Shown here one piece after another: positions 20,764 to 54,938 of a DNA stretch of 64,000 bases. Where the stretch lies: NCBI GenBank assembly GCA_964106645.2, contig OZ067039.1; one strand, 5' to 3'. A model generated the notes under the pieces. It searched no databases. It worked only from the letters and a program-made list of their open reading frames with translations, and had not been told where the DNA came from. Position 1 is the first letter of the stretch. The number at the start of each line of letters is the position of its first letter. The position numbers were made by a program, and so were the translations under genes. The stretch is from Podarcis pityusensis. Its lineage: Eukaryota.

Positions 20764-20879
20764 GCCACAGTTAATGCAGGTTCAATAAGTGTAAACCTGG
20801 GTCCTACTTGCTCTACTTTTTATGGATAGTTTTTCACTTGTGTCACTGAAGATGTGGACAAGATCAAGGTGTTACTTTT

Positions 20880-21580: not shown

Positions 21581-21705
21581 ACCAAAAGTCTTTTCATCAG
21601 ACCATTCCTCCCACCCATCCGCATTGATAAAGTACAGTTTTGGTCTGATCACTTTATCCCCCTAGGAAAGGCAGCAGGGCTGAACAAGCTAAGAATGAAG
21701 CTTAC

Positions 21706-21852
21706 CTTGAACTGTTTCTCTAGCCGAGTCTTTCCTCCAATTCCAGGTATGAGAATGCTATTAACATAGCTATGTAGCTGGTTAGCAGAAACTTCAGTCT
21801 CTTTCCCAAGAATGGCTTCCAACAAGGCATCATGAATAAAAACATACTGCTC
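21706..21852 (-). CDS. PTPRG: PTPRG coding exon (~exon 23), end of D1 and linker
   Basis: [49 protein letters not shown]; acceptor ttctag, donor gtaagc; 147 nt. Confidence 0.97.
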
Positions 21853-22809: not shown

Positions 22810-22945
22810 CTCTGTCTGGACGAGGTAGTTGCGCTGTGTCCTGATGTGTTTCAGGAAACCCAGGGCGTTAACTGTGCTTTTGTCTTTTATCTGTTGCAGC
22901 ATACTGTCTATAACAATGTAGGTACCAGTCCTGCCAACACCAGCG
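22810..22945 (-). CDS. PTPRG: PTPRG coding exon (~exon 22), P-loop AGVGRTG
   Basis: (S)[45 protein letters not shown]; acceptor tgtcag, donor gtaaaa; 136 nt. Confidence 0.97.
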
Positions 22946-23284
22946 CTGACAAAACAGAAGTTTCAGGAGAAAGGCTAGTTAAACACTAATAAAGAATTGC
23001 AACACCATGCTAATATTGATATACAGTAGACGCTTCTTTACATTCACAAAGTCTTGCTCTTTAGATTTTCTATAATATGCAATGGCCAACTTTCAATTTG
23101 CTTGTAATTGCTGGGATCTTAGGTGTTTCTTTGAATCCTCGCACAAGGAACCTTAGCTCCCAGTGAATGCAGCTTCTGGGCCAAAAAAAGGTTGGCCAGT
23201 CTTGCTCAGCATTTAAAGACAGGTCAGCTGGTAAGATTCATTTTCAGTTGGTGATACTCTCCAGGTTTGAGAGAAACTTGGTGC

Positions 23285-23500
23285 GACTTGGTGGTGTAGC
23301 GGTTAGAGTGTTGGACAAGGATGTGGGGTGCAAATCCCTGCTCAGCCAGGAAGCTCAACTTGGGCCAGTCACAGCCTCTCTGCCTAACCTACCTCACAGG
23401 GTTGTTGTGGGGACTAAATGAGGAGAGGGAGAATCATGTATGCCACCTTGAGCTTCTTGAAGAAAAAGGTGGGCTATGAATGCAGTAAGTAAAATAATAT
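23285..23500 (+). mobile_element. Older Squam3-like SINE
   Basis: ggtggtgtagcggttagagtgttggac head; ctaacctacctcacagggttgttgtgggg body; A-rich tail. Confidence 0.7.
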
Positions 23501-24321
23501 ATTAAATAAATATGTGAACATGCAAATATCTGCAAATTTAGGAAGTACATGTAGCACACACAGCTACTCTTTCCCAAAAAGGAGTCTTACATTTTGCAAT
23601 CAGAACATATTAAGGAATCCCACTGATGAAAGTAGGATTCATTTACTTTTGCCCTTTCTGACAATTAAAAAAGCTCCAAAACATTCAACCCTTTAGCGGT
23701 AATTCAAAGCTAAAAAAAATAAGCCAAAATGTAAGAATACAGCATGTTAAAACAACAATACATTAAAAAGTCTGGAAAAGTTTAAATGTCTTCATCTGAT
23801 GAATTCTTTTCTGAATCTGTTGTGGTTAAAGAAAAAGTTGCAAATGTTCTTGAGCAGCTGTGGTGTGGCATAGGGCAGTTCTGGATTAAACCTATTCGGT
23901 AGAACCTGAAAGCTCTGTCCCATAAAATGACAGCAAGCGATCACAGCATGAAATCCTGCAGCGAACTGCATAATCCTCTAGAATTCAATAAAAACTGCCC
24001 AGTTCTGCTGTGGATTACAGAATTATCAGATCCCAGAAAGTCATTCATCTATATAAGAGAATTTCACCCAGCAATGTGATGTGCTGTGCGGGACAGTTAA
24101 TAAACTTGTATTGGACCAGAGAAATTGAAGTTCAAACTGTGGTTCAGCCAATGATTCAGTGAATGGTGTTGATAAATCACAATCTCTTCCTATTGCAAAA
24201 TGGATATAATTGATTGTAAAGTGCACGATACATATGGGAAATACTGTTATGCTCTACTTCAGTTGTATATTAATCTACAACATGTTGCACGCAAAATTAG
24301 ACTGAACTTGCCCAGCTGTAC

Positions 24322-24485
24322 CTGCAGTGCACAACCACTGGGCCCATCTCAGCAGTCCTGGCTGCAGAGGATCTTCTTACAAATGTCAGCACTGGCAGTG
24401 CATATTCAGGCACACCCATGTCGGGCCACTGTGTGTAGTGATACTGAATGACCGTCCGTTCATTCTGTCGTCCTTTAGGGTTCCC
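24322..24485 (-). CDS. PTPRG: PTPRG coding exon (~exon 21), WPD loop and catalytic His-Cys
   Basis: [54 protein letters not shown](S); acceptor cactag, donor gtacag; 164 nt. Confidence 0.95.
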
Positions 24486-24594
24486 CTAGTGAGCCAGAAT
24501 ATATGAAACACATACAGGAGGAAAACATATTAGTTGGGGATTGAACTGCACCATGTTCAGGTGTGAGATAAGCTTTAACCAGTGCCTATTCTTC

Positions 24595-24925
24595 TAATTT
24601 TTTTTTTTAAATCATTTTCACCTTTTGCAAATATTTTAACAAGAGAAACAAAATCTTTGCAAGTCTAATTTACCTTCCCCTCAACTTCCCTCCTTTCTGC
24701 GGTTATTTATTTTATATCTTTTTATTACTGCACATCTAATTCAAATATATTTACTAATTTTCCCTTATCTTCCCCTTAATTATCTCTTATTGTGCATGTT
24801 TATATCAGTCCCACTAATGTTTTGATTTGTTTACAGTGTATCTTCAAATAGTCAATAATTTCCCCCCCATTCTATTTTAAAAAGTCTCTCTTCTTGATTT
24901 CTTACTCTTTTGGCGAGTTTCTCAA
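24595..24925 (-). mobile_element. L1 LINE 3' fragment
   Basis: Minus strand reads LAKRVRNQEERLFKIEWGEIIDYL, resembling a squamate L1 ORF2 C-terminus, followed by an A-rich tail. Confidence 0.55.
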
Positions 24926-25924
24926 TTTCTTCTTTTAACTTGCTGCAAAAATATATAAATAAAATCACGATACTTTTCTACAAAGACTAAATAAATCACT
25001 GGCAGAAAGGTTGGTCTTTCTTGGTTTTCCATGCCCATGTGCCCCACACCTGACATCATGTTTGGTGTAGGTGTGGGCAGGTGAAGACATACTGGTAGCT
25101 GGATTGACTGCTTGTGCAGCTGATCCCTGCAAAAAGCAGGATTGAACTCTACATGCTTGAGCTGAAAAATAGGATTACATAGGCAAAACAACTGCCTAGC
25201 AATGACTCTCATTCTACAAGCACAGCCATTATTCAAATACCTGCCTCTGTGACCTTTCTTTGTGCATGTAGGGTAGTTGAGCATCCCCAGAACCAATTTA
25301 CTAGTAGAGACATCATTCCATGCCAGAATGAAAGCTCTTCCATTTTATGACAGGATGCCATTGTGGCACTGCAGGCTTTGGACCTTGGGGTCTCAAATTT
25401 CACTGGGGCCCTGTGCAATGCCAAAATTTGGCACCCCCAGCCTCTTGTGGTCCATTCTAAAGCATAGTTGTGACATGCCCAAGGCTCCATATCCAGTGTG
25501 ACCGAACCACAAAATTGCGCTCCCCTAAATCTGCCTCTGGGGTGGGGCCCCTGGAACATTTGAGGACCTGCTGCGACTGACTGGTTACACAATATAAAGT
25601 TGCTCAGCTCTGGAGTGAACTTGACTCTGTAGTTGTTTCAGTTGCAGAAGAAATATCCAATGTAAAGTGCTGGTGATGTGTTGTGGGATTGGTTTCAGCT
25701 TATGCAGTCAGCTGATGTGGACAGGGTGCTGGTGGATACATACCCGTCCATGTGTCCTCTTGTCCCCCATCCCTCCTGCCTTATTAAATCTAGGAGAGTG
25801 CATTTGAATGGCTGGGTCCAGATATTTCATCAAAGAGATATACAGCAGCTGTGTATATCGCACCCAATAGCATATTCCTAGTGTCTATCCTTTGTCCAAA
25901 CCACAATGCAATAACACTTCTCAC

Positions 25925-26059
25925 CTTTTTCATTTTTGCATTCCTGACTGTGAAGCGGCGGACTGTATAGCAAGCATGTATTTTTGTGCTCTTCAATGTG
26001 ACAATGATATTGCCATATTCTTCACTGTTTTCTGATGGCCAGTATTGGTCACATTTTCT
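25925..26059 (-). CDS. PTPRG: PTPRG coding exon (~exon 20)
   Basis: [45 protein letters not shown]; acceptor ttctcag, donor gtgaga; 135 nt. Confidence 0.97.
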
Positions 26060-28634
26060 CTGAGAAAAGACAGAGTAGCATAGGATATTAGATTTTGAAG
26101 CGTGCTAGAGAACACAAGACCAGCAACATGCTAGAAAAGTCTTCCCTCCTTTTTCAGATGACTCTGGCCTGAAACCAGTATCAGCTGCAGCTTCTCAGCT
26201 GATGGGCCAGTTGAGAACGCAGGGAAGCGGTTGTCATCTGGAATGCCCTGGCCCCAGTTACCTTTTCTGCCACACAGGGAGTGAGTGTGAAAGACAGAAC
26301 AACAGAGCCATATTCCATCAGCAGCTGGAGTGGAAAGCTGCACCTAAAAGTTGCCTCCCCTTTGTGCCATCTCTTAGTGGAATTGCAAAAGTGAGTGCTT
26401 CTTGTTTTCTTGGCCTTTTGTTGAACTTAGGTTGCAAGGGCACATTTGGTTTGAGGGTTCTTTGGAAATTATCATTGCCCGCAATGCCCAAACATGGGCA
26501 AGTGTGGAGGGGGGGATGGTACATTTTACTGGGGCCTGGAGAACTACAAGGCTGCAACATCATTACTAGAAGGACAACTGAGGCTACGTTGCAGCCCAGA
26601 GAGACTGTGCTCATGCTGTTAAAAGGGAACTTGCAGTTTGAGGGAGAGATTTGTGCTTTTCCTATGTGACTTGCTCACTGAAGATCCATCAGTCTCAGAG
26701 TTCCTTCTGCAGAGGAAGGAAGGACGGAGAGTTGATGGGGAGGACAAAGCAGAATAGGGTTATTGATCCTAGGGCTAGAGGAAGTCAGTGCTACATGTAG
26801 GATTTGCATGCCCAAAATATATGTGAGTAAATGTCTACTTCATAAGTATCTTACAGATCTTCCTTAGAACTTTCCTTGTGAAACACCGCATCTCAAAAAA
26901 TCTACTTTGGGAAGAGTGTGTGTGACCTCTGCTTCTCTAACTAAATTAGATTTACAAAAAAAGCAGCCAACTTTTGGTGCAGTGTGTGTTGCCCTGGGCA
27001 AGAACATTAAGCTACCTAATTATTTTGTCTATTGTGTGCGAACTTGCAAGGTAAATTGACTTGGGTGAGATAATTCATGATTTCTCAATGAAAAAGGCCA
27101 GAAAAATAAATCTCTGAAGTGAATTGATCTATTTATGAAACATTTGCAGCTTGTTAGTCTTCTAAAAAAACCAAAAACATCAACAGGATAACAACTTCAT
27201 TACGATCAACCAAAAAGTTACAAAATAATCAGCAAGCTTCAAATAACTCTTCTGCTACCAACAATGGCAAATAGTGTGTATATATTTGGGCCTTAGTAAA
27301 AAGGTCCTAGTGTGGACCGCGCTCTGTCAGGCAGTTACCTCAGGTGGCAGGTGTGGGGTTATAAGAAGTGATGGAAAACAGAGTTATTTGTGCCACGCAG
27401 CCTGCCCTGCATCCCTAAATTAGCCTGCTGTCCTCTGACGCAACGAGGAATGCTGACCAATTACCAGTGTTGAAGTAAGAGTCAACTGCCAATCTGGCTG
27501 GCTTCTGTACATGGAATTGTTCTTTACCCCGGTCGGCCAAATGCCTTTGGCCAGCTCTGGCCATGGTAAAATTTCAGAGGTGGAAAGTTTAATTAAAATG
27601 GAAACTTTTCCTTGGTAACATGCTATTCTATGTATGGGTTGTGATCATAGTATGTATGTGGCAGAGGGTCTGCACTGCAAGTTTGTACTGGGCTCCCTAA
27701 AATAATGCTTGGACCATGATCCCTTTTCTTATTGCTGATAGCATGAGTGCTAATGTTGACCTCATTTCAGTCTCTTGTTTGGCTTGTAGCATGAGGATTG
27801 GTCTTTTTAGAATGTTCTGGATCTGGCTCATTTCCTGCATTTTTAAAAAAGAACCCTCAGATTGCTCTAAGCGGCTCTGAGGTTGTTGGTTTTTTTTTTT
27901 GCTATTTGCCTGTGCTCTGGTATGCTGACTGTGAGAGTAAGTTCACCAATGTACTGGGCATGTACATTGTGTACTTTTGGCTACCACTTAGGGGTGCTGA
28001 AGCTGTGTTCTGCTGGATGTTGTGAATTTTTATACTGTTCTATTAAGGAAATGGTGCTTATCCACAGGTTCCTGTATCTATTAAATTGATGGTTAGGTTA
28101 TTATGTACCAAATATTGTTATTTTGTATCAAATACTGTTATGTTTATTGTATTGACTGTCTGACATACTGTTTGGTATGTATTATTGATAGTGTGTTTTA
28201 ATTTTTATTGATGTTGCATTTTTATATATTGTTGCTATTATTTTTGTTTAACTTCGTTACGTTGTTCATTTGAAACTGCTCTGAGAATAATTTTTATGGA
28301 ATCACAGCATACATGTAAGTATGGTAATACTGATGACAGAGAATTCTTCTGGTGCTCTCTCTCTTCCAAACTTGGTTTCCTAGGCCCTCCTTTGTTCAGT
28401 GGTATGCTGCCTTCTCAGGAACCTTCTTTGACTCCTCTTTCTCTAGGGCACAATCAGCTCAGCCAGTGTCAGCCTTCTGCTTCCCCAGACCTTCTGTGAC
28501 CTTAGGAGAGCTCAGCCTATCACTGCTAGAAGCAAGGCTTCAAGCATCACTACCACCACACCCATCCCCTTAGTCTTACAGATCACATAATCACAGTGAG
28601 AAAAGTAGCTAGTGAAAAACTGCATTGCCCTTAC

Positions 28635-28769
28635 TCTTCCTTTTTCCACAAGGTTTGTAATCATGATGATAATTCCAGTGTTTTGCTCCCAAATCATTCT
28701 CCAGAAATCTTCAAATGTAGACTTTAAAGGTCCTTGGGTGGCAATGTAGGCTTTCGCTTTGTTGTAACC
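28635..28769 (-). CDS. PTPRG: PTPRG coding exon (~exon 19)
   Basis: [45 protein letters not shown]; donor gtaagg; 135 nt. Confidence 0.97.
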
Positions 28770-29002
28770 CTTCAAAGAAAACCATAAGGCAAAGCAAGAT
28801 AAAGTATCTGCATGGCAGTCATATTAATAATGTATATATTGCAGTGTGAGATGCCTTTCCTGCTGAACGTTTGAGGAGTCTGGAGCTAAAGTTAGTCAAC
28901 AGCAAAAAAAAAAATATAATAATTCTACAAGTACTAATGGTTTCTATTTCTTCTGTAGGACAGTGTTTCTCAAAAGAGAGATGAGAGCAAAAAACAACTT
29001 AC

Positions 29003-29085
29003 ATCAACATAATTGGCATTAATGTAGTCACTGTGCTTCGAGTCTTTTCCCGGCAAAGGTCTTAGCTTCACTCTACTGTGATCAT
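29003..29085 (-). CDS. PTPRG: PTPRG coding exon (~exon 18), DYINAN motif
   Basis: (Y)[27 protein letters not shown]; acceptor cctgaag, donor gtaagt; 83 nt. Confidence 0.97.
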
Positions 29086-29859
29086 CTTCAGGAAAGATAA
29101 CAAACAGGCACAAAACAGGAAAACATATTAGGAGATTAAAACTATGGATTTCTTAAAAGGACAATTCCCTAACCAGAAAACTAATAAGCACAACTCCCAT
29201 CAGCTCCAACTAGCATGGACGGCGAATGTCCAGGGCTGCTGGGAGTCCAACATCTGGAGGAAACCTTCATTGGCTCTTTTGGGGCTAAACCATTCTTTCC
29301 CTAAAGATTCTTTTTACTACTTATTAAATTTATATGCTGCCCTTCATTTGAAGATCACAAAACTTCTTCCATTCTCAACTGCACCAGTAAAATAATTTGC
29401 TGTCCAGAAAAAAAAAAGTGGCAGAAATGGTCAGCTAAGGGATCAAAAAGTTCTGGGTTTGTTTCTTTCCAGAGCACTTGGAAATGTGACAAACCCATTA
29501 GCAAGTTTGGGAGAGAATGGAACTAGCAAGGATTGTCAAATATGTAGTTCCCTCAAGTCGCTTTTCAGAGATTAGCATACCTAGATCAGACAGTAATTTA
29601 GGCTGAAACATTCAGCTGTGAAATCTTTAGGCAGGATTGCTACTTTCTAACCAAAAGCCAAAAGTATCTAATGTCAGACTGTCAATATCAGTCCTCTCAG
29701 AAAGCATACCTAACAGGGGTATCTTGTCCCTTGGATGAAAACAAACTTTTGTCACTCTAACTAACCTCATGCTAGGCAGACAGGCATTCTTACGCCAGTA
29801 CTGTAGTATAAAGTGGACACTTTTTGTTACTGTTGTCTCTTAAGGCCTTTACTACTCAC

Positions 29860-29956
29860 ATGCTAAAATGTTGATGTATCTGTTTTTGTGCTTGTTGTCG
29901 GGGTGATTGGAATGTTCAGCGGTGATGTTCATGTCAGATGTACAACGCTGCACTTC
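29860..29956 (-). CDS. PTPRG: PTPRG coding exon (~exon 17), start of D1 (KNRY motif)
   Basis: [32 protein letters not shown](Y); acceptor aacag, donor gtgagt; 97 nt. Confidence 0.97.
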
Positions 29957-40713: not shown

Positions 40714-40805
40714 CTCAAAGTCTTCTGAGAATCCATGCTGGTTGTTGGCATACAGTTCACTGATATGCTTAACGAATTGTTTGACAGGAATAGCTTCCAT
40801 GTCAT
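40714..40805 (-). CDS. PTPRG: PTPRG coding exon (~exon 16)
   Basis: (D)[30 protein letters not shown]; acceptor tttcag, donor gtacgt; 92 nt, phase 1/0. Confidence 0.97.
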
Positions 40806-41927
40806 CTGAAAAATAAAAAAGATACTCAGCTCTACAATTAATATTTTCTAACAATAACAATTGTCCTATAAAGTTAGGCAATAACATCTCTACCTAGATG
40901 CTAACAAACAGTGTGCGAAGATGGTTTCACGTGCCTTCACAGCTGATACTGGCCCCACTGATGTTGGTGCAAACTTAATGCTCAATTTCTGTATTATCAC
41001 TTTCATCCAGCACTAAGTGACCACCATGTTGCTGCTGTTTAGTCAAGTTTTCATTTAATTGATCCTACTGACCAGAAATGGTTGCTTTATTTCCATTTTA
41101 TGAATAAAGAACATCCATGAATGCACAGGAAACAAAGTGACCCGGGGCAGGTTGCCGATGGAGAAACTACAGGCAACTCTCCATTTATGGTGTCTGGTGG
41201 AATTTTGGTTTTTTAAAGGGTTTCCAAAGGGTTAGATAGAGGGTTTTTGCAGGCTTTTTCAATGGTGTTCCCACTATACACAATTTCACTTAAACATGCA
41301 GTGCCTTGGAACATAACCCCCACATAAATGGGGAGTTGAACTGAATTGAGCTCCAGGAATATATTTGTAGTGGATGGGCTTAACTACAGAATAGCTGAGA
41401 AATCGCAGCATATCTATTACCTTTGCTGTGTGCCTGATGACAGATAATGCAAATTATGAGTAGGGCAAATTAAATTGCTTTGGCTCTATGTCATAGGTAT
41501 TTTTACACACACATTTATGTATGTATTTGGTATAGCTTAACGCTTTGCAATATGAAAATATACTGACAAACAATAAAGAGGGCTCTGAATTCTAAACTAT
41601 TATTGTTATCAGTTCTACTACCTCTGACTTCTGCTAATGTGATACATGGAACAGCCAAAAAGGTTTGCCCATGGAAACATTTTGGTTGACTGTGTTCTGT
41701 GGTTGTATTAAGGCTAAGTCAACAATTTATAGATTGGTATGATCCATGCAAAATCTACATTTATGCTTACTTTTGCCTGGCCCGCACTTCATGGTAACTT
41801 CTTGAATTTTCTCTAGATATGCTAATAAAATACCGTTGCAAAATCCAGGGAATTTTTGAGGTTAAACCTGACAGCAAGTCTCTCCCTCTAGTACAGTGTT
41901 TATTACAATATCATAGTAATGTGAGTA

Positions 41928-42169
41928 CAGTCGTACCTTGGCTGCCTAACGCCTTGGGAGTTGAACATTCCAGTTCCTGAATGATCGAAAGCCAGAAGTG
42001 AGTGTTCTGGTTTTTGAATGTTCTTTTGGAAGCCGAACATCCGACGGGGCTTCCAATTGGCTGCAAGAGTTTCCTGCAGCCAATTAGAAGCTGTGCTTTG
42101 GAAGTCAAATGTTTTGAAAGCGAAACGGACTTCCGGAACGGATTCTGTTCAGTTTCTGAGGTACGACTG
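41928..42169. mobile_element. Non-autonomous Tc1/mariner MITE (second family)
   Basis: TIRs CAGTCGTACCT...AGGTACGACTG with TA TSD; central palindrome aattggctgca...tgcagccaatt. Confidence 0.88.
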
Positions 42170-42782
42170 TATGCTTAGCAGAAGAATTAACTCTCATCCA
42201 CAGGTAGGTTGTAATAATATATTTTCCAATGCAACTAATGTCTCTGAAAGTGATTGAATTCCTATGCTACTTTCATGAGAAGTTAAATTTCTGACAAAGT
42301 GAATAATCCCCCCCCCCAAAAAAATTCCCAATCTACAGCCAAAACCAGTAACACGTCCCTTTCCATGTACCCTTGTTTTAGCATATCTAACTCTAAATTA
42401 CAGTTTTGAAATGTATCTAATAAATGAGATAAACTATATATGTTAAAACAAGGAGGATGACTGGCTCTCGCAGTATGCCATTTTTATTCTGTCTGCTTAG
42501 ACTACAGAGTTGTGACCCTTCCTTGGGGGAATGAGCACATAATAATCTTTTCCACTTGATGTAGAGCATGCAGGAATAGCAAGAAAAACTTGCTTAACCA
42601 AAGGCTTGAAAACTATTGGAATGGGAATAAATCCAACTTTGAAGAGTCCAGCAACTATCTCTACTTTGGGACATTTAAGACACTTCCCATATGTTTTGGT
42701 ATATCAGTGAAAAGGATGAACTAAAGTCAAAGGTAGACTACAACCTCTATTTCATGAAACAATGAATCAATCAAGCCATCAC

Positions 42783-43011
42783 CTGGTGACAAATTATATG
42801 GATCTTCTGTGTCTGAAAGGTATTCAATCACTGTTGAGTTTCCCTGATCGAGCATTTCTTCTTCCTGTTCTTCTTGCTCTCTTCCTCCCTCTTTCCCATC
42901 CCCACCTTGGTCTGTCTTATCTTGCTCTATCTCTTCTTCACTTCCCTCTTCTTTTTTAAATGCACAGCAAATGACATCTCCATACAGGTATTTTGTTTTG
43001 AAGTTTCCCAT
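42783..43011 (-). CDS. PTPRG: Candidate alternative first coding exon of PTPRG: MGNFKT...CC...acidic linker, 76 codons +1 nt
   Basis: agaATGG strong Kozak, in-frame TAA at 43021-43023, donor CAG|GTGATG in phase 1 matching exon 16. Confidence 0.45.
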
Positions 43012-44055
43012 TCTTTCTGGTTAAATTGCCCAGCAAGTTAACACTTGTGGCGGAAGCTACTTGGCATCATGATGGGAAGATCCCACCTCCACTTCCATCT
43101 TTACCAAGCTGTCAGTGGACCAAAGAGCGGAGCATGGCAGGAGCTAAATTTTTCAGTGTTTGAAAGCTTTCACTTTGAAACAAGCTGATCTCTTAAGAGT
43201 TTGTGTGATTCAGTGCTGATACGAGTAACTCAGATAATCTTCAGGTCAACTCCACAATGCCCAGAATTAAAGATCCTGATATTTCAAATGGACTGGGGGC
43301 AGCGGGGCAGAATGACTTATTCTGACAGAAGGTCTAGCTGAGGCAAACATACTGCCAATTCATATTCATTTTATCTTTTTTCCCTTGCCTCAAAAAGCCA
43401 GAGATTAAAGTAATTTGAAGCACTGTGATTCGTCAGTTTAGGACTCTCTGCACAACTATTCCATACAGTCTGCAAATATCAGGAGCATTCTTTTGAAGGA
43501 AAATATATAGTCAGCCAGAAGTAGAGTTTGAAAGTTCTACATTCCAAAAATGCAGTCATTGTTCGAAAATTCCACTGCATTCTTTGCTCATGCACTCTAA
43601 ATGCCTCCTCAAATAAAATCTGCTAATGCATATGAGGAACATGCTTCTTTCAGGTACCTCTTATCTAGTGGCTACTGATAAGCTTCTTTTCCATTTCAGG
43701 AAAATTTACTTCAGAGACCATACCTCTTTTAGTCTACTGAAGAGATTAATGAAATCCTATAAAGGCTAATTAGGAAACCTAACAGTTGCTCAGTGCAAAG
43801 TCCCATTTGGGCAATTAGCTTTCTCCTTGCCTAAAACCGGGCAGCATTCATTAGTGTCACAGTGGAAAAAACCTTCTTGTCCCAACATTCAATAAATGGG
43901 AGGATATATTTTGTGTTAATAGCCATTGTTCATACTTTTTATTTTATTTATTTTGATTCTTCTTCATTCTGTCTCAGAGGCTTATATGTCCTTATGTCAT
44001 GTCAGTATGGATAAATAAGTATTTTAAAAATTAAGTAGGTTCTCTTGTTTCAATT

Positions 44056-44310
44056 GAGAGCCAGTGTGGTGTAGTGGTTAAGAGTGGTGGACTCGTAATC
44101 TGGGGAACCGGGTTCGATTCCCCGCTCCTCCACATGCAGCTGCTGGGTGACCTTGGGCCAGTTACACTTCTCTGAAGTCTCTCAGCCTCACTCACCTCGC
44201 AGAGTGTTTGTTGTGGGGGAGGAAGGGAAAGGAGAATGTTAGCCGCTTTGAGACTCCTGAAGGGGAGTGAAAGGCGGGATATCAAATCCAAACTCTTCTT
44301 CTTCTTCTTC
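44056..44310 (+). mobile_element. Squam3-type tRNA-derived SINE, young copy with (CTT)n tail
   Basis: gagagccagtgtggtgtagtggttaagag (A box), ggttcgattccc (B box), tail ...atcaaatccaaactcttcttcttc. Confidence 0.85.
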
Positions 44311-44874
44311 TAGATCTAAATTACTTACCAATATGTTAAAGACTAGCCCGCCTCTCCTCATCTACACATGGGAAAAAATTCTGCCGTGTTAAAAATCAAG
44401 GCTTTACATAGCCTTCCAGCAAGCAGCCTTGCTTGCTAGTCTTGAGCAATCCTATATTCAGTTACCTGGGGAGTAAGTCCCATTGAACCCAAAGGGACTT
44501 TCTTCTGAGTACACATATATAGGATTATATTATAATTGTACATTTGTCCCAGGCTCTAGGTACGTTCAGGCATTTGCCTGAACATGCAAAACAGAATCTC
44601 TGGATTGGGCCATGCAGACAAGCTCTGCCTCTCGTATCCTTGTATATGTTGCCTCACCTGATGAGTTCCCAGCCTCCCCCATTTTGAGAGGGTAAGATTT
44701 GCAGGGGGCTTATATTCCTTTTTGAGTGTAAACAGAACCTTCCATGGAAGACCCCCAATAAAACCTTAATCACAGGTGGAATATATTATAATGCAATCAG
44801 CATGTGGATTATATGAGCAGACATCTTGGGTTACTTTCCTACCCACATTAAGGCTACATTAAAGTGCGCAGTTT

Positions 44875-45300
44875 AATTGACCCAGGACCACAATACCTCA
44901 AGGACCACATCTCCCCATATAAACCGACCTGGACTCTGGATTCATCATCAGAGGCCCTTCTTTGTGTGCCTCCTTCACATGAGGTCTAGAGGGTGACAAC
45001 ATGAGAGAGCCTTTTCTGCACAGTGGCTCTCGTTTGTGGAATGCTCTCCCCATGGAGATTCGTCTGGCACCTTCATTATATATTTTTAGGTGCCAGGCAA
45101 AAGCTTTCCTCTTTCACCAGGCCTTTGTCTGATAATATTCTACAGCCTTTTAAATGTGGGGGGGGGGGGCTATTGTTTTGTTGTTTCAGCTTTAACAAAT
45201 TAGTTGTGCTTTTATATTGTATTTTAATCTTGTGAACATCCCTGAGATCTTTTGATGAACGGCCATATATAAATCTTACTTAAAAAATAAAATAAACAAA
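44875..45300 (+). mobile_element. L2 LINE 3' end
   Basis: tacctcaaggaccacatctccccatat...gagagccttttct...tgtggaatgctctccc, AT-rich tail. Confidence 0.6.
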
Positions 45301-46169
45301 AATAGATAATGACACTTGTGTTTAGTAAATATGTGCAATGCAAAAAAGGTGGTTTACAACTGTGATTACTTTTACCACACACACACAATCCATTCAGTGT
45401 CATTTTATTTTGCCCCTGACTTTTGTAAAGAAGGCTAAGCTAAAATATGGGAACCACGAGTGACTCTCACATTCCCTTTCCATATGTATAGGTCTTGTGA
45501 TGCACATTCTCTGCTGCATCTGGGCAGTGTTTAAAGTGTCCCTTCTGCACAACTTGCTACCAGATCCTTTTCACTGGAGATACCAATGGTTGCAAACAAA
45601 AGGCCCCAGGGCCAAAGCATGTGCTCTACCAAAAAGCTATGGCAAGGGGTGGAGAGGGCTAAGAAAAGACAGAAGCTTGGAGGATCAGGGATACAGCGTG
45701 TTAAAAGATGTTAAGTGGATGATTTAAGAGGCTATTCTAGTGTCAAGGGAAAGTGATAGTTTAGGGATTTGCTGGTGATGCAGAAAAGATATTAACGACA
45801 ATGCCATTTGAGCAGTGTATGACAGACTGGATCTTACTAAAAATCATACATGCAATGTCAAGTGAAACTGCTGCAGACACTTTGCAGAAAGTGTAAGTCC
45901 TATTCAGAGTAGACACATTGAAATTAATAAGCATGACTAACATAGGCCCACAATTTCAACTGGTCAACTCTGAGTAAACCATAGTTGCTTACAACCCCAA
46001 GTGGTTGATTTGGACTAGTCTGAGGCTGTGCAATCCAGTGTACACAATAGGGAGTAAGTTCCACTGAACTCAAGTTCCATTGGCTACAATCATCTTATGT
46101 TATAATCACAGTGCATCGTACAGGGTACAGTGAATTCCCATAACTGATGTTTGAACAATGGTGGATCTA

Positions 46170-46265
46170 CTGTCATGGATGCTTTAGCTGAGATTCCTGC
46201 ATTGCAGGGAATTGGACTAGATTACCATTGGGATCTCTTCCAACTCTACTATTATATGATTCTAC
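46170..46265 (+). mobile_element. CR1 3' end
   Basis: gctgagattcctgcattgcaggg...ttggactagat...cttccaactctactattatatgattcta. Confidence 0.7.
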
Positions 46266-49200
46266 TACTTTTCAGACAGGCTACAAGCCTGCAATTACTT
46301 ATGCGTGCCTGTATCCATAATGCCTAACTGATGCATTATGGGAGCTTTCATGAATCCTTTATTCCATTCCAAACACCCAAATTTAGGCAATCTCAGTAAA
46401 GGGACACACCACTGCCCTTATGAATGTTCTTTATTTTATTCATTTTACAAGATAATAACAACACACTGCAGAGGGTGCAGACAGTGCATTCCCATAACTA
46501 ACCTTTGAACAACACTGAACCTACTGGTTGAGAGAAAGACTATGTTGTTATTGGCTGGAAGCCAGCAAACTGTGAAATGAATTTAAATTGCACCGAATTT
46601 AAGTAGGATGAGCACATGTAGCTGTGCACTGGATTGCAGTCACTGTACTGAGTCTATTCTAAGAAAGCGAGTTATGCCTAAATCCCATTGAAAAACAATG
46701 AGATTTCAGCACATAATTTAATATTTTAAGTGTCATTAAGAACCCTCACTGGTCCTGATCCAGAGTTCTGCATGAGCCGTAATTGACTCTTAGGCAGACA
46801 AAAAAGAAAGAAAGAAAAGAGACCATGTGCTTGTGACTGAGTGAGTATTAATGACACCATTTCAATCAAGGTGTAATCTAATATAGCATCATGCCAAGAG
46901 CAACTATTAAGGGATGTGTCAGTTACAAATATTATGCACATTGAATGAAATCTGAATTTATAAACCACATGCACACATCCGCCTTTAAATAATAAATGAA
47001 AGTGACATTCAGTCCACCTACTTTAAGTCTGCAAGGAAGAAATGAGAGTCATTCCTGAATAATCCAAATGAGAACTATTTACATTCACTGAGGAGAATGT
47101 TGTGTCTTGCAAAAAGTACCCGATATGAAAAGGCACTGGGTACATGTTGGCCTCCTCCTCCTTAGCAATGAATATGGTGACATACAGTGATAATGGAAAC
47201 ATCCGAGCACTGGTTTGCAAACTTAAGGGAAAGTTGTGGAAATTTCTTGAGGTTCAGCAGCTGTTGAGTCCCCCCCACCCAATATGACTCAAACTGTTGT
47301 TGAAAAGAAGTGGGGAAAAGAAGGCAAGCCAATATCAAATGGAAGAAATTGGATTGATATTTCTCATACGTTTTGAACATGGCCCTCGTTCCAGGCCAGT
47401 CACTCTGCTATTTGCTCCACAGATTAGAAAATTCTGCATGCAGGGGCAGAATGGGACATCTCTTCATAAGCATTTTGGAGGGAAAACAGCATATTGATTC
47501 ACTTATGTGGTTATCCTTGATCCATATGGGGCTTAAGCTGGGAGATGTACATTAATGACAACACCGGCAAAATATATATATTTCTCTTTTTAATGCAAGT
47601 TTTATGATTCTCTGGTCAGCTTTTATTTGGTGGCGAGGGCTGATAGGCATCAGACAAGATCTACACACACCCAACCTATGACTACAGATTAGTGATAAAG
47701 AGTTCCATGAAAAGATCACTAGGAGGCACCCAAAATGAACTGTGCTAAGAAACAGAAAATGAAGCAATGGCAAGTGTGTGTGTGTCTGTGTGGAACAGAA
47801 TGGGCTAGCATATTTAATAATGTTTAATAAGTCTGCCATCCAGGCGCAGTTGCTCTCCCCCTAAGGGCATGATCCCAGATGAGACCAATGCTTTTTGATT
47901 TATATTAAGTGGGTAATAGCTGTAGGGGCAACTGAGCTAATGATCCTGTCGGTGTTCTGTGGTTCTCTAGACTGCTCAGCAGAGTTAATTATGAATTGTA
48001 ATGAGAACTCTGGGCTTCAGGACAGAACGGGCATAGATTAGTACATGCCTATATGCTATTCAGTTTCATGGTTGAAAATGAAGTAAATTTCTTCTGTGGA
48101 AAGCTAGGTATCTAATAATGCTGCAGTTGCAGAACAGCAAAATTCTATTATACCATCAATCATTAGCACCATGTATTTTGGAGCTGTCAAGCACCTTTAA
48201 AGCTGTCACAGAATTTGTTTTTGTTGTTTTAAAAAAGGAATGCAGAGGACTTTCACATTTTTAGATATGCATGGTCAAAACTGCTTCCATTGTGACCATA
48301 TGACTGAAACTGAGAATGAAAATTGGTCCACCCAGCCCGGTTAAATAGATGTGCAGATCCACAGGGACATATTTAACTATCCATTTATAACTACTGCCTG
48401 GGGTATCGCTAGCAAATAAAGATTACTTTAAGGAACTGGCGTTTGTTAAAATGTCATTTATACTTTACTTCCAGAATCAATACAGCTTGGGAGATTTTCT
48501 CATGCTCCCTGGCTATTTCTAAAGGGGAAGAAAAAGTTTAGAAGAGGTATCATTTTATCAACCATATGAGTGAATCAAAAGGAAGAATTTTCCATTTAAC
48601 CTTTAAAGGCTTTTCAGCAAAAACGGCTGTATAAGGAGTTATAACTGACAGGAAGGTGTGAAACAGCACTTAGCAGATTGCTCTGGGGAATGGAATTTGA
48701 AGCCTTTTCTGGTGTGGTGGGGAAGCGAGGAAAGGGCATCAGGATGAGGTTAATTGGACCCATTCAAACAGACTAAGAACGGGTTCCCCCCACTTTTAGA
48801 ATTATTTCTACATTTATGCACACCTTTAGTTCTACTCAGGCATCTGGTTTCTATGGGTACTGAATGCATGATGGGACCAGCAGGAACACGAGGGGCTAGA
48901 GCTGTCCCACCTTGATGACATCATATGTGTCGGCCATGACCCCAGGTGACTTGCCAGCAGACTCACAATCTGCTTCTATTTGTATAGGGTTTACAGGAAA
49001 AGGAAGTGAAGCTTGTTAAACCTTGTTCACTCAGGGTTCCCCATCCCCATGGAGGATACTCAATGCAAGGGGTAGTCAATGTGGTACTTTCTAGATGTTG
49101 GACTACCAAGTCCCCAGCCAGTATGGCCAATGGTCAGGGAGTTATAGTTCAACAACATCTATGGGACATCTCACTGGCGACACCTGTCTTATGAGCACAA

Positions 49201-50426
49201 AAAGAGCCCTCTTCAGACTGATGACAACTGGGCATTGGCTGGGGTTATGCAGCTGGTACATGCCTTGCTAGCCCACCTGGGCCCTTCACACATTGTGCCC
49301 ACAGGCCCTGAATTCTTGAATGGAGCATTAAGGCACAGTATTGCCATGGTATCATATACATAAAACTCAACAGCTATGTACAAGAAATTGCAAAAGTTCC
49401 ACAAAGGTTGCTGCTTCAGAATGCATGAAAAAGGTGCTCTTACTTCCATAGTTAGACCTTGGACATAGTTAGACCTATCACCACTAAAAAAGAGGCATAA
49501 TATTTTCTATTACACAGAATAACGCAGAAAATTTCATCCTTGTTTTTATGTTACATTTGTAATATGGCTTTCTACCTTCAGAGGAAAAACAGTATTTTAA
49601 TAATATCTAAAAGTATTTAAGTTAAACTACTATTCCACTGTCTATTATTTTATTCTAAGTTCCGGTTTGGTACTCCTGGAACATTTCAGTGGTATTGATG
49701 AAAAGCAACCATTTTCTCATTTTCTTTTTGGACTTATGGGCACACTCCCACTTTTTAGAAAATCAAAAATCTTCCCTCTAGTGTGAAAACACACTGAGAA
49801 TATTCATTCAAATCAAGAGCCACTATAACCCTCCGCATTTTTTTTAATAGAAAAGATGAAAACTTTATCCTGGATCTCAAACCCCCGCTTCTGCAGACCA
49901 ATGCTTGAAGATCTGGGGGGACCATTTGAACATTTTAGCTATTTCGCACATTATTTTGATTAATCAAACTAAAATTGGGCTTGGTTTCAACTACATACAT
50001 TAGTTGGAAGGTTGTAATGATATGGATTTTTCCTCTTTGTCGGCAAGAATAAAACAGCTATTGATGTATAAGTGGGACCTCCAGTCCCTTTCCCCTCCCA
50101 CCCATTTCCCATTTTGCTCACAACAGTCAAGCGGCATTATATGACCACTGAATATGTTTGGGGTCCCCCTCTCCTAGATCCCCCCAAAGTTTCTTGTCCT
50201 TCAGACAACTTAGTATTAAAAGTGTATTAAGAAATTATATTAGAGTGAAGCTCCAATAGAAGGAGCTTTTGCCTCCACCTTTTAGACAGACTAATAAATG
50301 ATCTACACCAGAGATCAGGAACATGTCTATCTCCCAATGTTGCTAGACTGCACCTCTCACCATCCCTAACCATTGGTCATGCTGTGAGAGCTGGAGGCCA
50401 ACAACATCTAGAGGGCGACCCTGATA

Positions 50427-50668
50427 CAGTGGTACCTCTGGTTAAGTACTTAATTCGTTCCGGAGGTCCGTACTTAACCTGAAACTGTTCTTAACCTGAA
50501 GCACCACTTTAGCTAATGGGGCCTCCTGCTGCTGCCGTGCCACCGGAGCACGATTTCTGTTCTTATCCTGAAGCAAAGTTCTTAACCTGAAGCACTATTT
50601 CTGGGTTAGCGGAGTCTGTAACCTGAAGTGTATGTAACCTGAAGTGTATGTAACCCGAGGTACCACTG
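50427..50668. mobile_element. Non-autonomous Tc1/mariner (Tigger-like) MITE
   Basis: TIRs CAGTGGTACCTC...GAGGTACCACTG flanked by TA on both sides; internal taacctgaag repeats. Confidence 0.9.
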
Positions 50669-51654
50669 TATACATGTTCAACCAAAAGAGGTTTTCTTCT
50701 ATTGTTTAAGACAAAAGGTGGGGGCTTGGTTGTTGTTGTTTTTAATGTTCCCTCTTATTTATCTGATTAAAACCAACAACATGTATTTGTAGTAATGAAA
50801 AACCGCATGAGGTAAAATAATAGACTAGAACTTTTCTCCTGCTCAGCTCTGAAATTCTTTATCTTACAACTCCCATTTAAGCTTCGTAACTATTCTCCTG
50901 AATACTTTGCACCTCCTGCGATGGTGTGGGGAAATACCACAGAACTAATGGAATTAGTAGCATTTGGGGGGTGAGGCATTCTATATGGTCAAATAATACA
51001 ATTTTGCTTACACGTGACAAGAAGATGGGGAGATTTTTTTTTATTTTTAAAAGCTTTTAGACAAACCTTAAGGAGGATTTTAATGGCAAAGTTTTGGTTA
51101 TATGAAGGACTTCTGGTTTGTAGCATTGTGCACACTGGTAATAGGGGAAAATCATCACAGCATGCAGAGTTGTACACATTTCTGACATGATTTGCTGCTA
51201 ATTGGATAAGAGTATGTGAACAAAAGCTCTGTCAGAATGGGTTATCCACAGCCCCTTTCTGAAGACAATCCCATAAAGCAGATCCAAACCCAATTTGGAA
51301 TTCAGCTAATGGGATCAAACCTTGGAAAAGTGACATAGAAAGCATCCCAAGTGAATTTCCTATGTATTTGCATGTTTGCTCAGGAGATCCCATAAAAAAA
51401 AAAATCACCACATGAGCATCAGAGGTTTGTCAGACAAGGTAATCACACTTCCGACAAAAGCCTCAAGGCCATACAAAGAACTCCAATGTTATCTTATCTA
51501 TATTGTACACAATATTGTTGGCTAGCAATATTTAACTTATACGTATGCCTTGCAAAGAATCTCAGTCTAAAACAGTTATTTGTTACATGGCTTTCAAAAT
51601 ATCTGGAAGGGGGGGGGATAAGTGCAGTGCACAATTCTCAGTGGGAGAGCATCT

Positions 51655-51810
51655 GAATCATAGAATCACAGAATTGTAGAGTTGGAAGGAACCCAGGGGT
51701 AATCTAGTCCAACCCCCTGCAATAGGGGAATCTCAACTAAAGCATCCATGGCAGATGGCTATCTACCCTCTGCTTAAAAACCTCCAAAGAAGGAGAGTCC
51801 ACTGCCTTTT
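51655..51810 (-). mobile_element. CR1 3' end
   Basis: gaatcatagaatcacagaat tail repeats and gagttggaagg...tctagtccaaccccctgc. Confidence 0.75.
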
Positions 51811-53011
51811 TAGGGATTCCAACTTCCTATGTTCCCAATAACTGAAAGATAACTGTAACGCTCAAACCAGTGGCCAACCAGCAGCCAACCCACTACCTCA
51901 GGAAAAACTGTGACAATTCCAACATGCCTTTGAAAAAAGCTTTGAGTTTTCATTGCTCTAAGGCAAGAGTAGGGAAACTTTGGCCCTCCAGTTGTTGCTG
52001 GACTACAAACTCCATCATCCCCGACTATTGATCCTACTGGCTGGGAAGGATGCGAGTTGTAGCTCACAACATCTGGACAGCACCAAAATAGCTACCTGTG
52101 TTTCAAGGCATAAAGAGCTGTGTACAACAGACAATATGCAAATCTTCACATCTGTCTGGCTTTGGCTCACAAATTTCTGCTGAGAACCATTCCATATATA
52201 ATTACTTCAAGGCACTTGACAGATTGTAAAATAGTAGGCATGTGCGTTGATATTTTTAATTAACCAGTAAATAAGCATTAGGACCAAGTCTGCAGCTACT
52301 CTAACAGCAATCTTCTCTTTACTGAGAAGTAAATCCCACTGCTTAGTTTCCAGTAAGTGTATTTAGGATTGTATTTAGGACTAAACTGATACAACTTTGC
52401 CTCAAGCAAAACCTATGCATCTTATTTGGCCACTTACATTTAAATGAGAGTTTTCCTATAAAACAGTACTGCGTAGGTGGGATCTCCCCCTGCCCTCAAA
52501 AGGTCACAGGCAGCCTGGCAAGCAAAAGTCTTCATTACGCAGACCTGGCAACTGGAGTTCCACTTGCACTGCAATCCAACATTACCTGGGAGTAAGTCTC
52601 AGTGAATGTCAGGATTTCTGTGTAGACATTCATAAGATTGTCCTGCACAGCTGGAGGCCAGAGAAGGTGCAGACTACGAACATCAGTGAACAAGAAGGAT
52701 GGAGTAAGTGATTAATGGCAAAAGGGCAGAGCGAGGAAAGTAGAAGACACATGGGGACTCCCCACTATGATACCATCAGTGCTTTGTGCCTTATCCAGAT
52801 AAGAAAGCACTAATCCAAACTCTGTGTTCCCCCCTCATTTTAATGAAGATTTACAGAAATATTACTACACACTGCGGGATGCTCCAAATGTATAAAGAAG
52901 TCAGCCAATGTGGGAAGCGGACTGACTGATACAGAACATACAGTGCAAACTGTGATTTGTAAGGAGCCCAAAGTATGAATGAGTTAAGTCATGATGTCAG
53001 ACCTTCCTTAC

Positions 53012-53103
53012 CTGGGATGGGAATAACAGGAATGGTTTCGTTTGGCACCACTCGAGGCGAACTGCTGTCTTCCACATAGAAATGAGCTGTCTGAAAACAT
53101 TTT
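53012..53103 (-). CDS. PTPRG: PTPRG coding exon (~human exon 15), juxtamembrane region
   Basis: Translates (R)[30 protein letters not shown](D); acceptor cacag, donor gtaagg; 92 nt, phase 2/1. Confidence 0.97.
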
Positions 53104-53831
53104 CTGTGAATGGAAGAGAAACATCATCAGCACTCTCAGGGCTCTCTGACATTTCTGTCCATGCTAAGCATTTGCATCACACACATGGACAAACACACAC
53201 AAAGTTTTATTTCTGATTTTGTCATGCCAGTGACTCTCAAGTGAACGCTAAAATGTGCTGCTACCAGTCACCATAAACCATCATTTCGTTTAGGAGCCTC
53301 CCGTTTCTTACCTTTTATTAAACAAACAGTCTAGGAAGTTTAGCAGCTGAGAGTGCATGCATTCACTTAAAAAGGAAACTTTTGGGTGTCACTTATTGTG
53401 GTTCAATAACAGCCCTCCTTAAAAGAAAACTAAAACAATCATAACCACACTAGTGTTGGAAACACATAGAACCTTGCCACTTAATGGGCAGCACCTAGAG
53501 CAGAACACCCATAACGGTCACACTACTTCCTTAGGGAAGTTGCAATCTCAACAGGAAAAAAAGTTTGCCTCATTCAACTCTGTGCTGGCTGTGCAAATCC
53601 CCTTTGCAGGCTTCTGCAAAACAACGAGAAGAACACATGCTGCTAAGGAAAAGCCTGTGGTAGATGTCAACTCGGCTTCCTCCCTCTGCGACCCTCCCCT
53701 ACCCCTCCGCTGAAAGGAACGCTGAAAAGGCCAGAGGGCAACTCAGATGCAGCCCACCGATGTTCCCGCCAGCCAGATTTAAAGACTTGAATCTGCTTCC
53801 CTGAACACATTGCAATTGCTGCTCTTTTTAC

Positions 53832-53923
53832 CTGTACTTAATGCAAAGCAGGGAGCACAAGCTGGTCATCACAGAGAAGGCACTGAGGAGGAGAGCATCC
53901 AGAGGTCCAATGAGCCTGTGCAT
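53832..53923 (-). CDS. PTPRG: Candidate alternative first (or cassette) coding exon of PTPRG: hydrophobic N-terminus MHRLIGPLDALLLSAFSVMTSLCSLLCIKY(R)
   Basis: accATG context, in-frame upstream TGA at 53969-53971, donor CAG|GTAAAA in phase 2 matching exon 15, CpG-rich region upstream. Confidence 0.6.
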
Positions 53924-54420
53924 GGTGATGCTAAGCAAGGCAGGGCTTTCCAGCAGCCACGTCACTGCTCATTGCTGCCTTAATGAGCTGCTTGAGGCTG
54001 GGACTGAATATTTAATGAGCCTTGCTCAGCGTGAGCAGCTATTGTGACAAGCAGAGGGGCTGCTCTCAGCTGTCAGGAGCTCTTAACAATAGCCTGGACA
54101 GAGCAGAGAGAGAGAGAGCCCTCTTCCTGCCTCCCTTAATGAACTGCTGCTCCTCAACACCTGTGCGGGGTCCTGAACGCCTCCGCCTCCGCCGCGATTA
54201 GCTTCCCCGGCACGCAAGCCACTGCCTCTGCTTGTAAAGGTTTGCAGCGGTCTCTCTTCCGCACAGCACGGCTTCTGGAATTACGGCCAAGCAGAAAAGC
54301 CCACTCCATCCCGCCAGCTTTGCTGACACTGTCAAAGCAATTTGTAGTGCCATTGTTTCCAGAACAGAGGTACATAGCAGAGGGCTTGGGGGGGGGGTGC
54401 AGGGGGGTGCAGAGAGAAAA
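53924..54420 (-). promoter_or_regulatory. Putative intronic promoter / 5' UTR of the short PTPRG isoform
   Basis: Locally GC/CpG-rich (54160-54320), CRE-like TGACGTG at 53958-53964, three TAATGA motifs (53981, 54013, 54137), G-runs at 54382-54406; no recognisable repeat. Confidence 0.5.
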
Positions 54421-54938
54421 AGGGCAGCGCAACTCACACAGCTTTCAAAGGCCAAGCAAATCTCTTGCAAGAAGTTGGCCAAATGCATGCAGCAGGCCCT
54501 CAATTTCTGAATTCTGCTAACAATCAAAGCTAGGGCTGTCAGATCGAAATGCTCAGAATAAGGAGATTGATGAAGCCGTGGCAGTATTTCTCAAATGTTT
54601 TGAGAATGGCCACCCCATTCTGCTGTCCCGTGAACCCAAAGCCAACTAGCTGAGCATATGGAGATATGGTTGTGTGCAGAAAGAACAAGCCTTTTCTTTT
54701 TAGCCTATGAAACAGAATACTTTCCTCTGAAAGTCCTACCTGGCACCTACCATTTCATTCCTTCAGTGGCAAAGGGTTTGTGTGTGTGTGTGTGCTTGTG
54801 TGTGTGGCAGGGAGCTGGGCAGCCAGCAACAATGGCTGGATTTTTATAATTTTGATTATGCTTTCATTACACTTATGCGTTTTTATTGTAGATTCACGTA
54901 AGTAACTGTGTTGGTCTGACGCAGTTGAAATAAATTTA

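What the first reader, a model, noticed from the sequence alone, without database searches (positions are those of the whole stretch)
40714..54420. Possible modular anchoring system: three alternative N-termini on one phosphatase core
Inference from the two candidate exons taken together: the same D1-D2-PDZ(ESLV) module could be delivered by (i) the canonical receptor TM exon outside the window, (ii) a signal-anchor exon entering at exon 15, or (iii) a lipidation exon entering at exon 16 that also drops the juxtamembrane [10 protein letters not shown] segment. Each candidate independently shows upstream stop, ATG, a membrane-targeting motif and a phase-matched donor. Phase matching alone has a 1 in 3 chance per exon, so transcript data are needed.
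Basis: inference. Interest (0 to 1): 0.7.

Follow-up and report, generated by a model that had tools for sequence, protein, structure and literature searches.

The report
Receptor-less PTPRG form from internal promoter
A lizard receptor-phosphatase gene (PTPRG) carries an old internal first exon, already known in mouse, that makes an enzyme without its outside sensor and probably pins it to the membrane through two conserved cysteines, whereas the proposed third start is more likely an optional internal exon or a relic.

Summary
The window holds the 3' half of lizard PTPRG (minus strand; exons 15-30 give one open frame). Both candidate exons exist as described.

Candidate A (53923-53832) is real. 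It is the orthologue of mouse exon 14a of Ptprg-V2: a mouse 5'-RACE primer matches it 20/21, and finch and four fishes carry it (5 of 102 named references). It is therefore already known, but is published as 'exclusively intracellular'. What is conserved is the last 13 residues, with two invariant cysteines and a basic end. The hydrophobic extension that makes a signal anchor was seen only in lizard and finch. S-acylation, plus a weak signal anchor in those two, is my inference and is untested.

Candidate B (43011-42783) has no transcript support as a first exon. Its donor is weak, it lacks promoter signals, and its probable Sceloporus counterpart is an internal 60-residue cassette without the myristoylation motif. 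Anchor-like pseudo-exons appeared in 61% of 300 resampled introns.

Verdict: two N-termini are supported and three are not shown (about 0.2). The organisation is a known kind (PTPRE, PTPRO, PTPRR). One practical point is that two mouse Ptprg null alleles should leave V2 intact.

The parts
53901..54500 (-). Probable internal promoter region of the short isoform
   Evidence: The three CpG-richest 400-bp windows of 625 (14 CpG, GC 0.56-0.57, o/e about 0.45, so below a classical island); GC-box-like words at 54193 and 54187
53924..53966 (-). 5' UTR of exon A; 53966 is the position equivalent to nt 1 of mouse NM_001347593
   Evidence: Mouse exon-14a primer nt 4 maps to 53963; mouse RACE primer F matches 53945-53965 at 20/21, score reached by 0 of 100 shuffles
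53957..53964 (-). TGACGTGG element at the inferred start site (CRE/UPRE-like; label recalled)
   Evidence: Only copy on either strand of the window; present in the mouse RACE primer F
53870..53923 (-). Exon A, N-terminal extension from Met1 (18 codons) that completes a 19-residue moderately hydrophobic stretch
   Evidence: 11/18 identical to finch P0018; Kyte-Doolittle 19-mer 2.15 versus 3.21 for the canonical TM; A at -3 of the ATG
53832..53869 (-). Exon A conserved core MTSLCSLLCIKYR (orthologue of mouse exon 14a coding part), phase-2 donor
   Evidence: 13/13 finch, 13/13 Alosa, 11/13 Hucho, 10/13 Tachysurus, 10/13 Collichthys; both Cys invariant in 6 of 6; donor rank 24 of 3534
53012..53103 (-). 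PTPRG exon 15 (juxtamembrane segment)
   Evidence: 100% identical to Podarcis references; boundaries
42783..43016 (-). Candidate B: acidic exon-like frame; ATG 43011 with myristoylation-like start and Cys15-Cys16; phase-1 AG acceptors opening at 43016 and 42950; phase-1 donor after 42783
   Evidence: Best of 428 intron-15 frames against the Sceloporus 60-aa cassette (66 versus next 33; 5 of 20000 shuffles); acceptor scores 3.3 and 3.2, donor 4.3
40714..40805 (-). PTPRG exon 16 (start of the crystallised D1 region)
   Evidence: 100% identical to Podarcis; PDB constructs start at about this exon
8052..29956 (-). PTPRG exons 17-30: D1, D2 and C-terminal ESLV
   Evidence: Exon-by-exon tblastn and open frame; two Y_phosphatase stretches in the finch orthologue

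Best explanation
PTPRG has two transcription starts. The distant one makes the receptor. An internal promoter at about 53966 starts exon A (mouse exon 14a), which splices to exon 15 and yields a 76-78 kDa D1-D2-ESLV phosphatase with no ectodomain. [Shown in mouse by published cDNA and RACE; shown here by orthology; not shown by lizard transcripts.] The selected element is a 13-residue peptide with Cys at positions i and i+4, followed by KYR and exon 15's K/R-C-F. I infer that it is S-acylated and holds the enzyme on the cytosolic face of membranes, uncoupled from contactin or bicarbonate sensing. [Inferred.] In lizard and finch an upstream in-frame ATG adds 18 residues and gives a marginal N-out/C-in signal anchor that ends in the same cysteines. 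[Sequence shown, topology inferred.] Candidate B is a fast-evolving squamate acidic exon used, if at all, as a minor in-frame cassette between exons 15 and 16, lengthening the juxtamembrane linker; its MG..CC start is probably incidental. [Inferred from one annotated orthologue model.]
For: Mouse RACE primer match. The mouse exon length inferred from the supplement coordinates (134 nt) against 135 nt here, and the ORF start at nt 94, give 13 codons + 2 nt, i.e. the same phase. Five of 102 named references carry the core; 8 of 13 positions, including both Cys, are invariant in 6 of 6 sequences. The two Cys fall at 40 and 80 degrees on a helical wheel. Strong donor and CpG/GC-rich upstream region for A but not for B. 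Sceloporus X3 carries a 60-aa in-frame insert at exactly the exon 15/16 junction that aligns to B from about residue 19 on. Alternative palmitoylated N-termini are precedented in PSD-95, SAP97 and GRIP1/2 (PMC6502786 passages).
Against: No lizard transcript was seen for either exon. No S-acylation data: searches for PTPRG or RPTPgamma with palmitoyl/myristoyl terms listed no such study (listings, plus passages of one paper). The mouse 13-residue sequence itself was not seen (figures not held), so its cysteines are inferred. Taki 2024 did not detect V2 in 3 of 3 hippocampal preparations and states that RefSeq has no human orthologue. A brain-membrane western with an antibody to the cytoplasmic region reports only a >180 kDa band (legend only). 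For B, unrelated acidic stretches of PTPRG ectodomains score as high against it (55-68 versus 66), the donor is offset by one codon from the Sceloporus one, the position equivalent to the Sceloporus acceptor reads CAT rather than AG, and only 1 of 102 references has the cassette.
Confidence: 0.55

Rival explanations
1. One reading: three N-termini, with B a true first exon giving a myristoylated and palmitoylated 79 kDa enzyme that lacks exon 15.
For: B has a strong Kozak context, Gly2/Thr6/Lys7 fitting the myristoylation pattern (pattern recalled), CC at 15-16, an upstream stop and a phase-matched donor; this specific combination arose in 2.7% of 300 resamples. Exon 15 is dispensable for the fold, since PDB constructs start at residues 58-68 of the finch isoform. 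One close-relative ORF keeps Met1, Gly2 and CC. An exon can be both first and internal. The exon-15 query could not have found an isoform that starts with B.
Against: No protein of 134-2000 aa with this N-terminus among 23 candidates (weak test). One hit among 1.84 billion representatives, and it reads through the donor into the intron with 10/10 identity there against about 88% in the exon, so it is an unspliced genomic frame and shows no extra constraint. No promoter signal. The Sceloporus counterpart lacks the motif. Real-sequence control 0.19 expected.
Confidence: 0.2
2. Exon A makes a soluble cytosolic phosphatase, like cytosolic PTP-epsilon. The conserved peptide binds a partner, sets turnover or senses redox, and the sauropsid extension is a by-product of a conserved pyrimidine-rich 5' region.
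For: This is the published reading: 'catalytic' class in Forrest 2006 and 'exclusively intracellular' in Taki 2024. The extension is 65% pyrimidine and clearly less hydrophobic than the real TM. The non-coding DNA there is conserved to mouse.
Against: The passages read base the cytosolic label on absence of a TM domain and report no localisation experiment. Two invariant Cys plus a basic cluster over fish-to-bird distance is the usual look of an acylation signal (own knowledge). Met1 position and frame are kept between lizard and finch.
Confidence: 0.3
3. B is not spliced at all in this lizard: a decayed exon or a purine-rich intronic stretch that only resembles the Sceloporus cassette.
For: Weak donor and acceptors (4.3, 3.3, 3.2; 14 of 15 true donors score >=4.9 and 14 of 16 true acceptors >=6.3, leave-one-out); 31% identity to Sceloporus; the two Podarcis models among the references lack it; composition alone gives similar scores.
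Against: Same intron, same strand, same 3' phase, gapless alignment and an open frame in both species; best of 2231 frames in the whole window (66 versus 43); the one indel in the close relative is a whole codon.
Confidence: 0.3

Closest known systems
Mouse Ptprg-V2 (NM_001347593 / NP_001334522, cDNA AK144283, exon 14a); rat X6; predicted in rabbit, guinea pig, hamster (PMC11215419, PMC1431701)
   Same: Orthologous first exon, same entry into exon 15, same phase, about the same length and start site.
   Different: Mouse has 13 exon-encoded residues and is described as cytoplasmic. Lizard and finch have an upstream in-frame ATG giving 31 residues with a hydrophobic stretch. Neither paper, in the parts read, notes the cysteines or the presence in fishes and sauropsids.
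PTPRR, PTPRE and PTPROt multi-promoter isoform sets (PMC9900141 passages)
   Same: Internal promoters deliver one catalytic core as receptor, signal-peptide-less TM (type III in PTPRR) or cytosolic forms.
   Different: There the short TM forms reuse the receptor's own TM exon (stated for PTPRR; recalled for PTPROt). Here a separate first exon supplies its own candidate anchor.
Palmitoylated alternative N-termini of PSD-95/SAP97 alpha forms and GRIP1b/pGRIP2 (PMC6502786 passages)
   Same: A short alternative N-terminus with cysteines switches the membrane targeting of a shared core.
   Different: Unrelated scaffold proteins; acylation is shown there and only inferred here. No sequence comparison was run.
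Sceloporus undulatus PTPRG isoform X3 (P0020)
   Same: Acidic 60-residue insert at the exon 15/16 junction, probably orthologous to B.
   Different: Internal, inside a full-length receptor model, and without the MG..CC segment; a computational annotation whose read support I could not see.

Membership tests
PTPRG (R5 receptor PTP) | Tandem D1-D2 phosphatase domains ending in a C-terminal ESLV | tested here: met
PTPRG (R5 receptor PTP) | Carbonic-anhydrase-like, FN3 and TM exons upstream | not testable with these tools
   Outside the window; present in the orthologues
Ptprg-V2 / exon 14a isoform | First exon orthologous to mouse 14a, phase-2 donor, joins exon 15 in frame | tested here: met
Ptprg-V2 / exon 14a isoform | Transcribed and spliced in this species | not testable with these tools
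   No transcript data for the window's species
Ptprg-V2 / exon 14a isoform | Only 13 exon-encoded residues, no hydrophobic segment | tested here: not met
   In-frame upstream ATG with A at -3 gives 31 residues in lizard and finch
Type III (N-out/C-in) signal-anchor proteins | About 19 hydrophobic residues near the N-terminus followed by basic residues | tested here: inconclusive
   KD 2.15 and summed biological scale -0.8 (scale values recalled) against 3.21 and -5.2 for the true TM; KYRK follows
N-terminally S-acylated isoforms | Conserved N-terminal cysteines next to hydrophobic and basic residues | tested here: met
   Two Cys invariant in 6 of 6 sequences; mouse sequence not seen
N-terminally S-acylated isoforms | Thioester-linked fatty acid and cysteine-dependent membrane binding | not testable with these tools
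   Needs acyl-RAC or imaging
Myristoylated plus palmitoylated alternative first exon (candidate B) | Met-Gly start fitting the myristoylation pattern, with nearby Cys | tested here: met
   (pattern recalled)
Myristoylated plus palmitoylated alternative first exon (candidate B) | Motif conserved in the distant orthologue | tested here: not met
   Absent from the Sceloporus insert; upstream Sceloporus DNA not available
Myristoylated plus palmitoylated alternative first exon (candidate B) | Own promoter and capped 5' end | tested here: inconclusive
   No CpG/GC enrichment; tissue-specific promoters often lack it; no CAGE data

The most novel reading that the evidence does not exclude
RPTP-gamma has an ancient (bony fish to mouse) ligand-blind isoform that is lipid-anchored rather than cytosolic and that survives in the commonly used mouse null alleles. 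Sauropsids turned its N-terminus into a signal anchor, and lacertid lizards added a third, myristoylated and palmitoylated start by recruiting an ATG in front of an internal acidic exon. The full three-way system is about 0.15; the lipid-anchored V2 part alone is about 0.55.
Probability: 0.15. Interest if true: 0.7.

Novelty: new variant of a known kind. Interest (0 to 1): 0.42.

Why it matters
RPTP-gamma is studied as a contactin receptor, a CO2/bicarbonate sensor, an EGFR phosphatase and a tumour suppressor. A membrane-held form without ectodomain would act on the same substrates while ignoring extracellular control. The knockout used in the eLife vascular study carries a cassette just 3' of exon 1 (PMC7541084 passage), and the gene-trap line has its insertion between exons 2 and 3 and was quantified with exon 2/3 primers (PMC3447766 passages). 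Neither should remove a transcript that starts at exon 14a (inference), so their mild phenotypes may understate loss of the phosphatase. The exon-21 C1060S knock-in would inactivate both forms and gave a broadly similar behavioural result (abstract), which limits this argument for adult brain. The cysteine hypothesis is cheap to test.

Tried and rejected
Search for proteins beginning with B: none among 23 candidates; one unspliced close-relative frame among the 50% representatives. ESM Atlas: no usable hit for B and only generic PTP leads for the finch N-terminus. Pfam: 0 families for A or B. A region search with finch residues 1-40 returned only itself (1 of 1 candidate), so the taxonomic range rests on the best 120 of 651 hits, from which 18 unnamed rows were dropped. 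The cluster-member look-up could not be made, so the 28 members of the finch cluster and any mammalian or lacertid short isoforms stayed unseen. AlphaFold on a 5-row alignment failed (mean pLDDT 29.5) and is not used. Mouse RACE primer E (24 of 100 shuffles reach its score) and the MPSS tag (4 of 100) do not map convincingly; the MPSS support in Forrest 2006 probably reflects a shared 3' end (inference). The idea that exon A is a duplicate of the TM exon is only weakly supported (7-432 of 5000 shuffles over 8 comparisons) and was not adopted. The idea that B's cysteine codons are an old polypyrimidine tract was not supported (tract score -1.2). Neither exon overlaps a repeat found by self-BLAST (no repeat library available). 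One search scored A's donor one base off; one search corrects it. The original knockout paper was not held.
Full report
Identity. The window is vertebrate DNA (GC about 40%, CpG-poor). Its minus strand carries exons 15-30 of PTPRG: tblastn places every exon in order, and the refined exons give 650 residues ending ESMESLV. Exons 15 and 16 are 100% identical to Podarcis references, so the source is probably a lacertid lizard (inference). The TM exon and exon 14 lie beyond position 64000. Exon numbers follow the mouse numbering in PMC11215419.

Observation. The criteria used are loose, however. In 300 resampled copies of the 12.2-kb intron 15, some ATG-to-donor exon with an anchor-like motif appeared 61% of the time, and the real intron holds 18 phase-matched ATG-to-donor candidates. 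The two candidates therefore needed separate outside evidence.

Candidate A is real. A search with exon 15 gave 651 hits; the best 120 were listed and the 102 named ones examined. Five carry A's sequence directly before exon 15. A 684-residue finch protein starts with a 31-residue orthologue (24/31 identical, cluster of 28 members). Hucho, Tachysurus, Collichthys and Alosa models share only the last 13 residues (10-13 of 13). Two of these fish models are partial or look unreliable, and the Alosa model places the core internally, after the TM. Independently, Forrest et al. 2006 (PMC1431701; passages, section 12 and two supplement rows read) list a mouse Ptprg cDNA, AK144283, with an alternative 5' exon confirmed by 5'-RACE in 6 of 6 tissues. 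Their primer F matches the window at 53945-53965 in 20 of 21 bases, a score no shuffle of 100 reached; primer E does not map. Taki et al. 2024 (PMC11215419; abstract and sections 3, 11, 20 and 41 read in whole or part) name this exon 14a of RefSeq Ptprg-V2 (667 aa). They list predicted orthologues in rat, rabbit, guinea pig and hamster, state that none is annotated in human, and did not detect it in 3 of 3 hippocampal preparations. Their primer puts the mouse start site at window 53966. Locally, A has a strong donor (24th of 3534 GT sites) and sits in the CpG-richest part of the window.

What A encodes. The mouse ORF starts at nt 94, one codon before the position of the lizard's second Met, so the mouse form has no TM-length segment. 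In the six sequences I could see, 8 of the 13 core positions are invariant, among them two Cys four residues apart and KYR; exon 15 adds K/R-C-F. This pattern suggests S-acylation, as in the palmitoylated alternative N-termini of PSD-95, SAP97 and GRIP (PMC6502786 passages). It is inference: searches for PTPRG or RPTPgamma with palmitoyl or myristoyl terms listed no such study, and the mouse peptide itself was not seen. In lizard and finch an upstream ATG adds 18 residues (11/18 identical) and gives a 19-residue stretch of KD 2.15, against 3.21 for the true TM, followed by KYRK. That could be a marginal N-out anchor or a by-product of conserved pyrimidine-rich DNA.

Candidate B. One of the 102 references, Sceloporus isoform X3, has a 60-residue acidic insert exactly between exons 15 and 16. 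B is its best match among 428 frames of intron 15 (66 versus 33) and among 2231 frames of the window; 5 of 20000 shuffles reach that score. Orthology is probable but not secure: identity is 31%, acidic ectodomain stretches score 55-68 against B, and the donors differ by one codon. In Sceloporus the exon is internal and starts downstream of the MG..CC segment. In the window, two AGs in the matching phase (43016, 42950) would allow in-frame inclusion, but they and the donor are weak, and no promoter-like composition precedes B. The myristoylation-like start is good on paper, with a chance level between 3% and about 19%. The only relative that shares it is a 90%-identical unspliced frame with no excess conservation inside the exon. 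An isoform starting at B could not have been found by the exon-15 query, and cluster members could not be listed, so absence from databases is weak evidence. If B were a first exon the product should be catalytically whole, because crystallised constructs begin at about exon 16.

Comparison with what is known. Delivering one PTP core with different N-termini from internal promoters is established for PTPRR, PTPRE and PTPRO (PMC9900141 passages). Exon A is a member of the known Ptprg-V2 class and differs by its extension. B is not shown to be a first exon. A review of PTPRG (PMC8773835, passages only) discusses shed and secreted forms, which a 75-80 kDa band would have to be told from.

Consequence. 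The exon-1 knockout (PMC7541084 passage) and the exon 2/3 gene trap (PMC3447766 passages and abstract) lie upstream of exon 14a and should spare V2 (inference). Against high abundance in adult brain: V2 was not amplified from hippocampus, and a western legend reports only a >180 kDa band with an antibody to the cytoplasmic region.

Verdict. Observation confirmed; interpretation partly supported. Probabilities: exon A is a functional first exon here, 0.9; its product is membrane-held through the N-terminus, 0.6; B is used as a first exon, 0.2; B is mainly an internal cassette, 0.45-0.5; B is unused, 0.3. Interest 0.42.

Noticed in passing
window 53957-53964 (minus): The window's only TGACGTGG lies at the inferred start site of exon A and is kept in the mouse primer; it resembles a CRE/unfolded-protein-response element (label recalled), hinting at an inducible promoter.
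   Followed up: partly
window 53972-53931 (minus): A 13-codon out-of-frame upstream ORF starts 6 nt before the mouse-equivalent start site and ends just before Met1; the mouse primer also shows an ATG followed by a stop three codons later in this region.
   Followed up: no
window 53861 (minus); P0090: A phase-2 AG inside exon A (score 5.5) could let the cysteine core be spliced in after the TM exon; the Alosa model does include the core there.
   Followed up: partly
window 25925/24485 (exon 20/21 junction): The window lacks three residues (GQK) in D1; 35 of 102 named references, nearly all squamates, lack them, 48 have them and 19 were not classified.
   Followed up: partly
P0025, P0032, P0066 (outside the window): Otter, goat and anole models start shortly before the canonical TM exon, suggesting a further ectodomain-less, TM-bearing form; the otter cluster has 20 members.
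   Followed up: no
window 42905-42906 region (minus): Candidate B has a second phase-1 donor after 35 codons with a similar score (4.4), which would give a shorter version.
   Followed up: no
window 62083-62140 (+): Weak tRNA match at the Rfam threshold (29.3 bits), most likely a tRNA-derived SINE head.
   Followed up: partly
window 6978, 5348, 5025 (minus): AATAAA signals 1.1-3.0 kb after the stop. Mouse V2 is 6265 nt, close to the 6.2-kb human PTPRG mRNA cited in PMC11215419, so that band could be either a short-UTR full-length message or a V2-like one.
   Followed up: no
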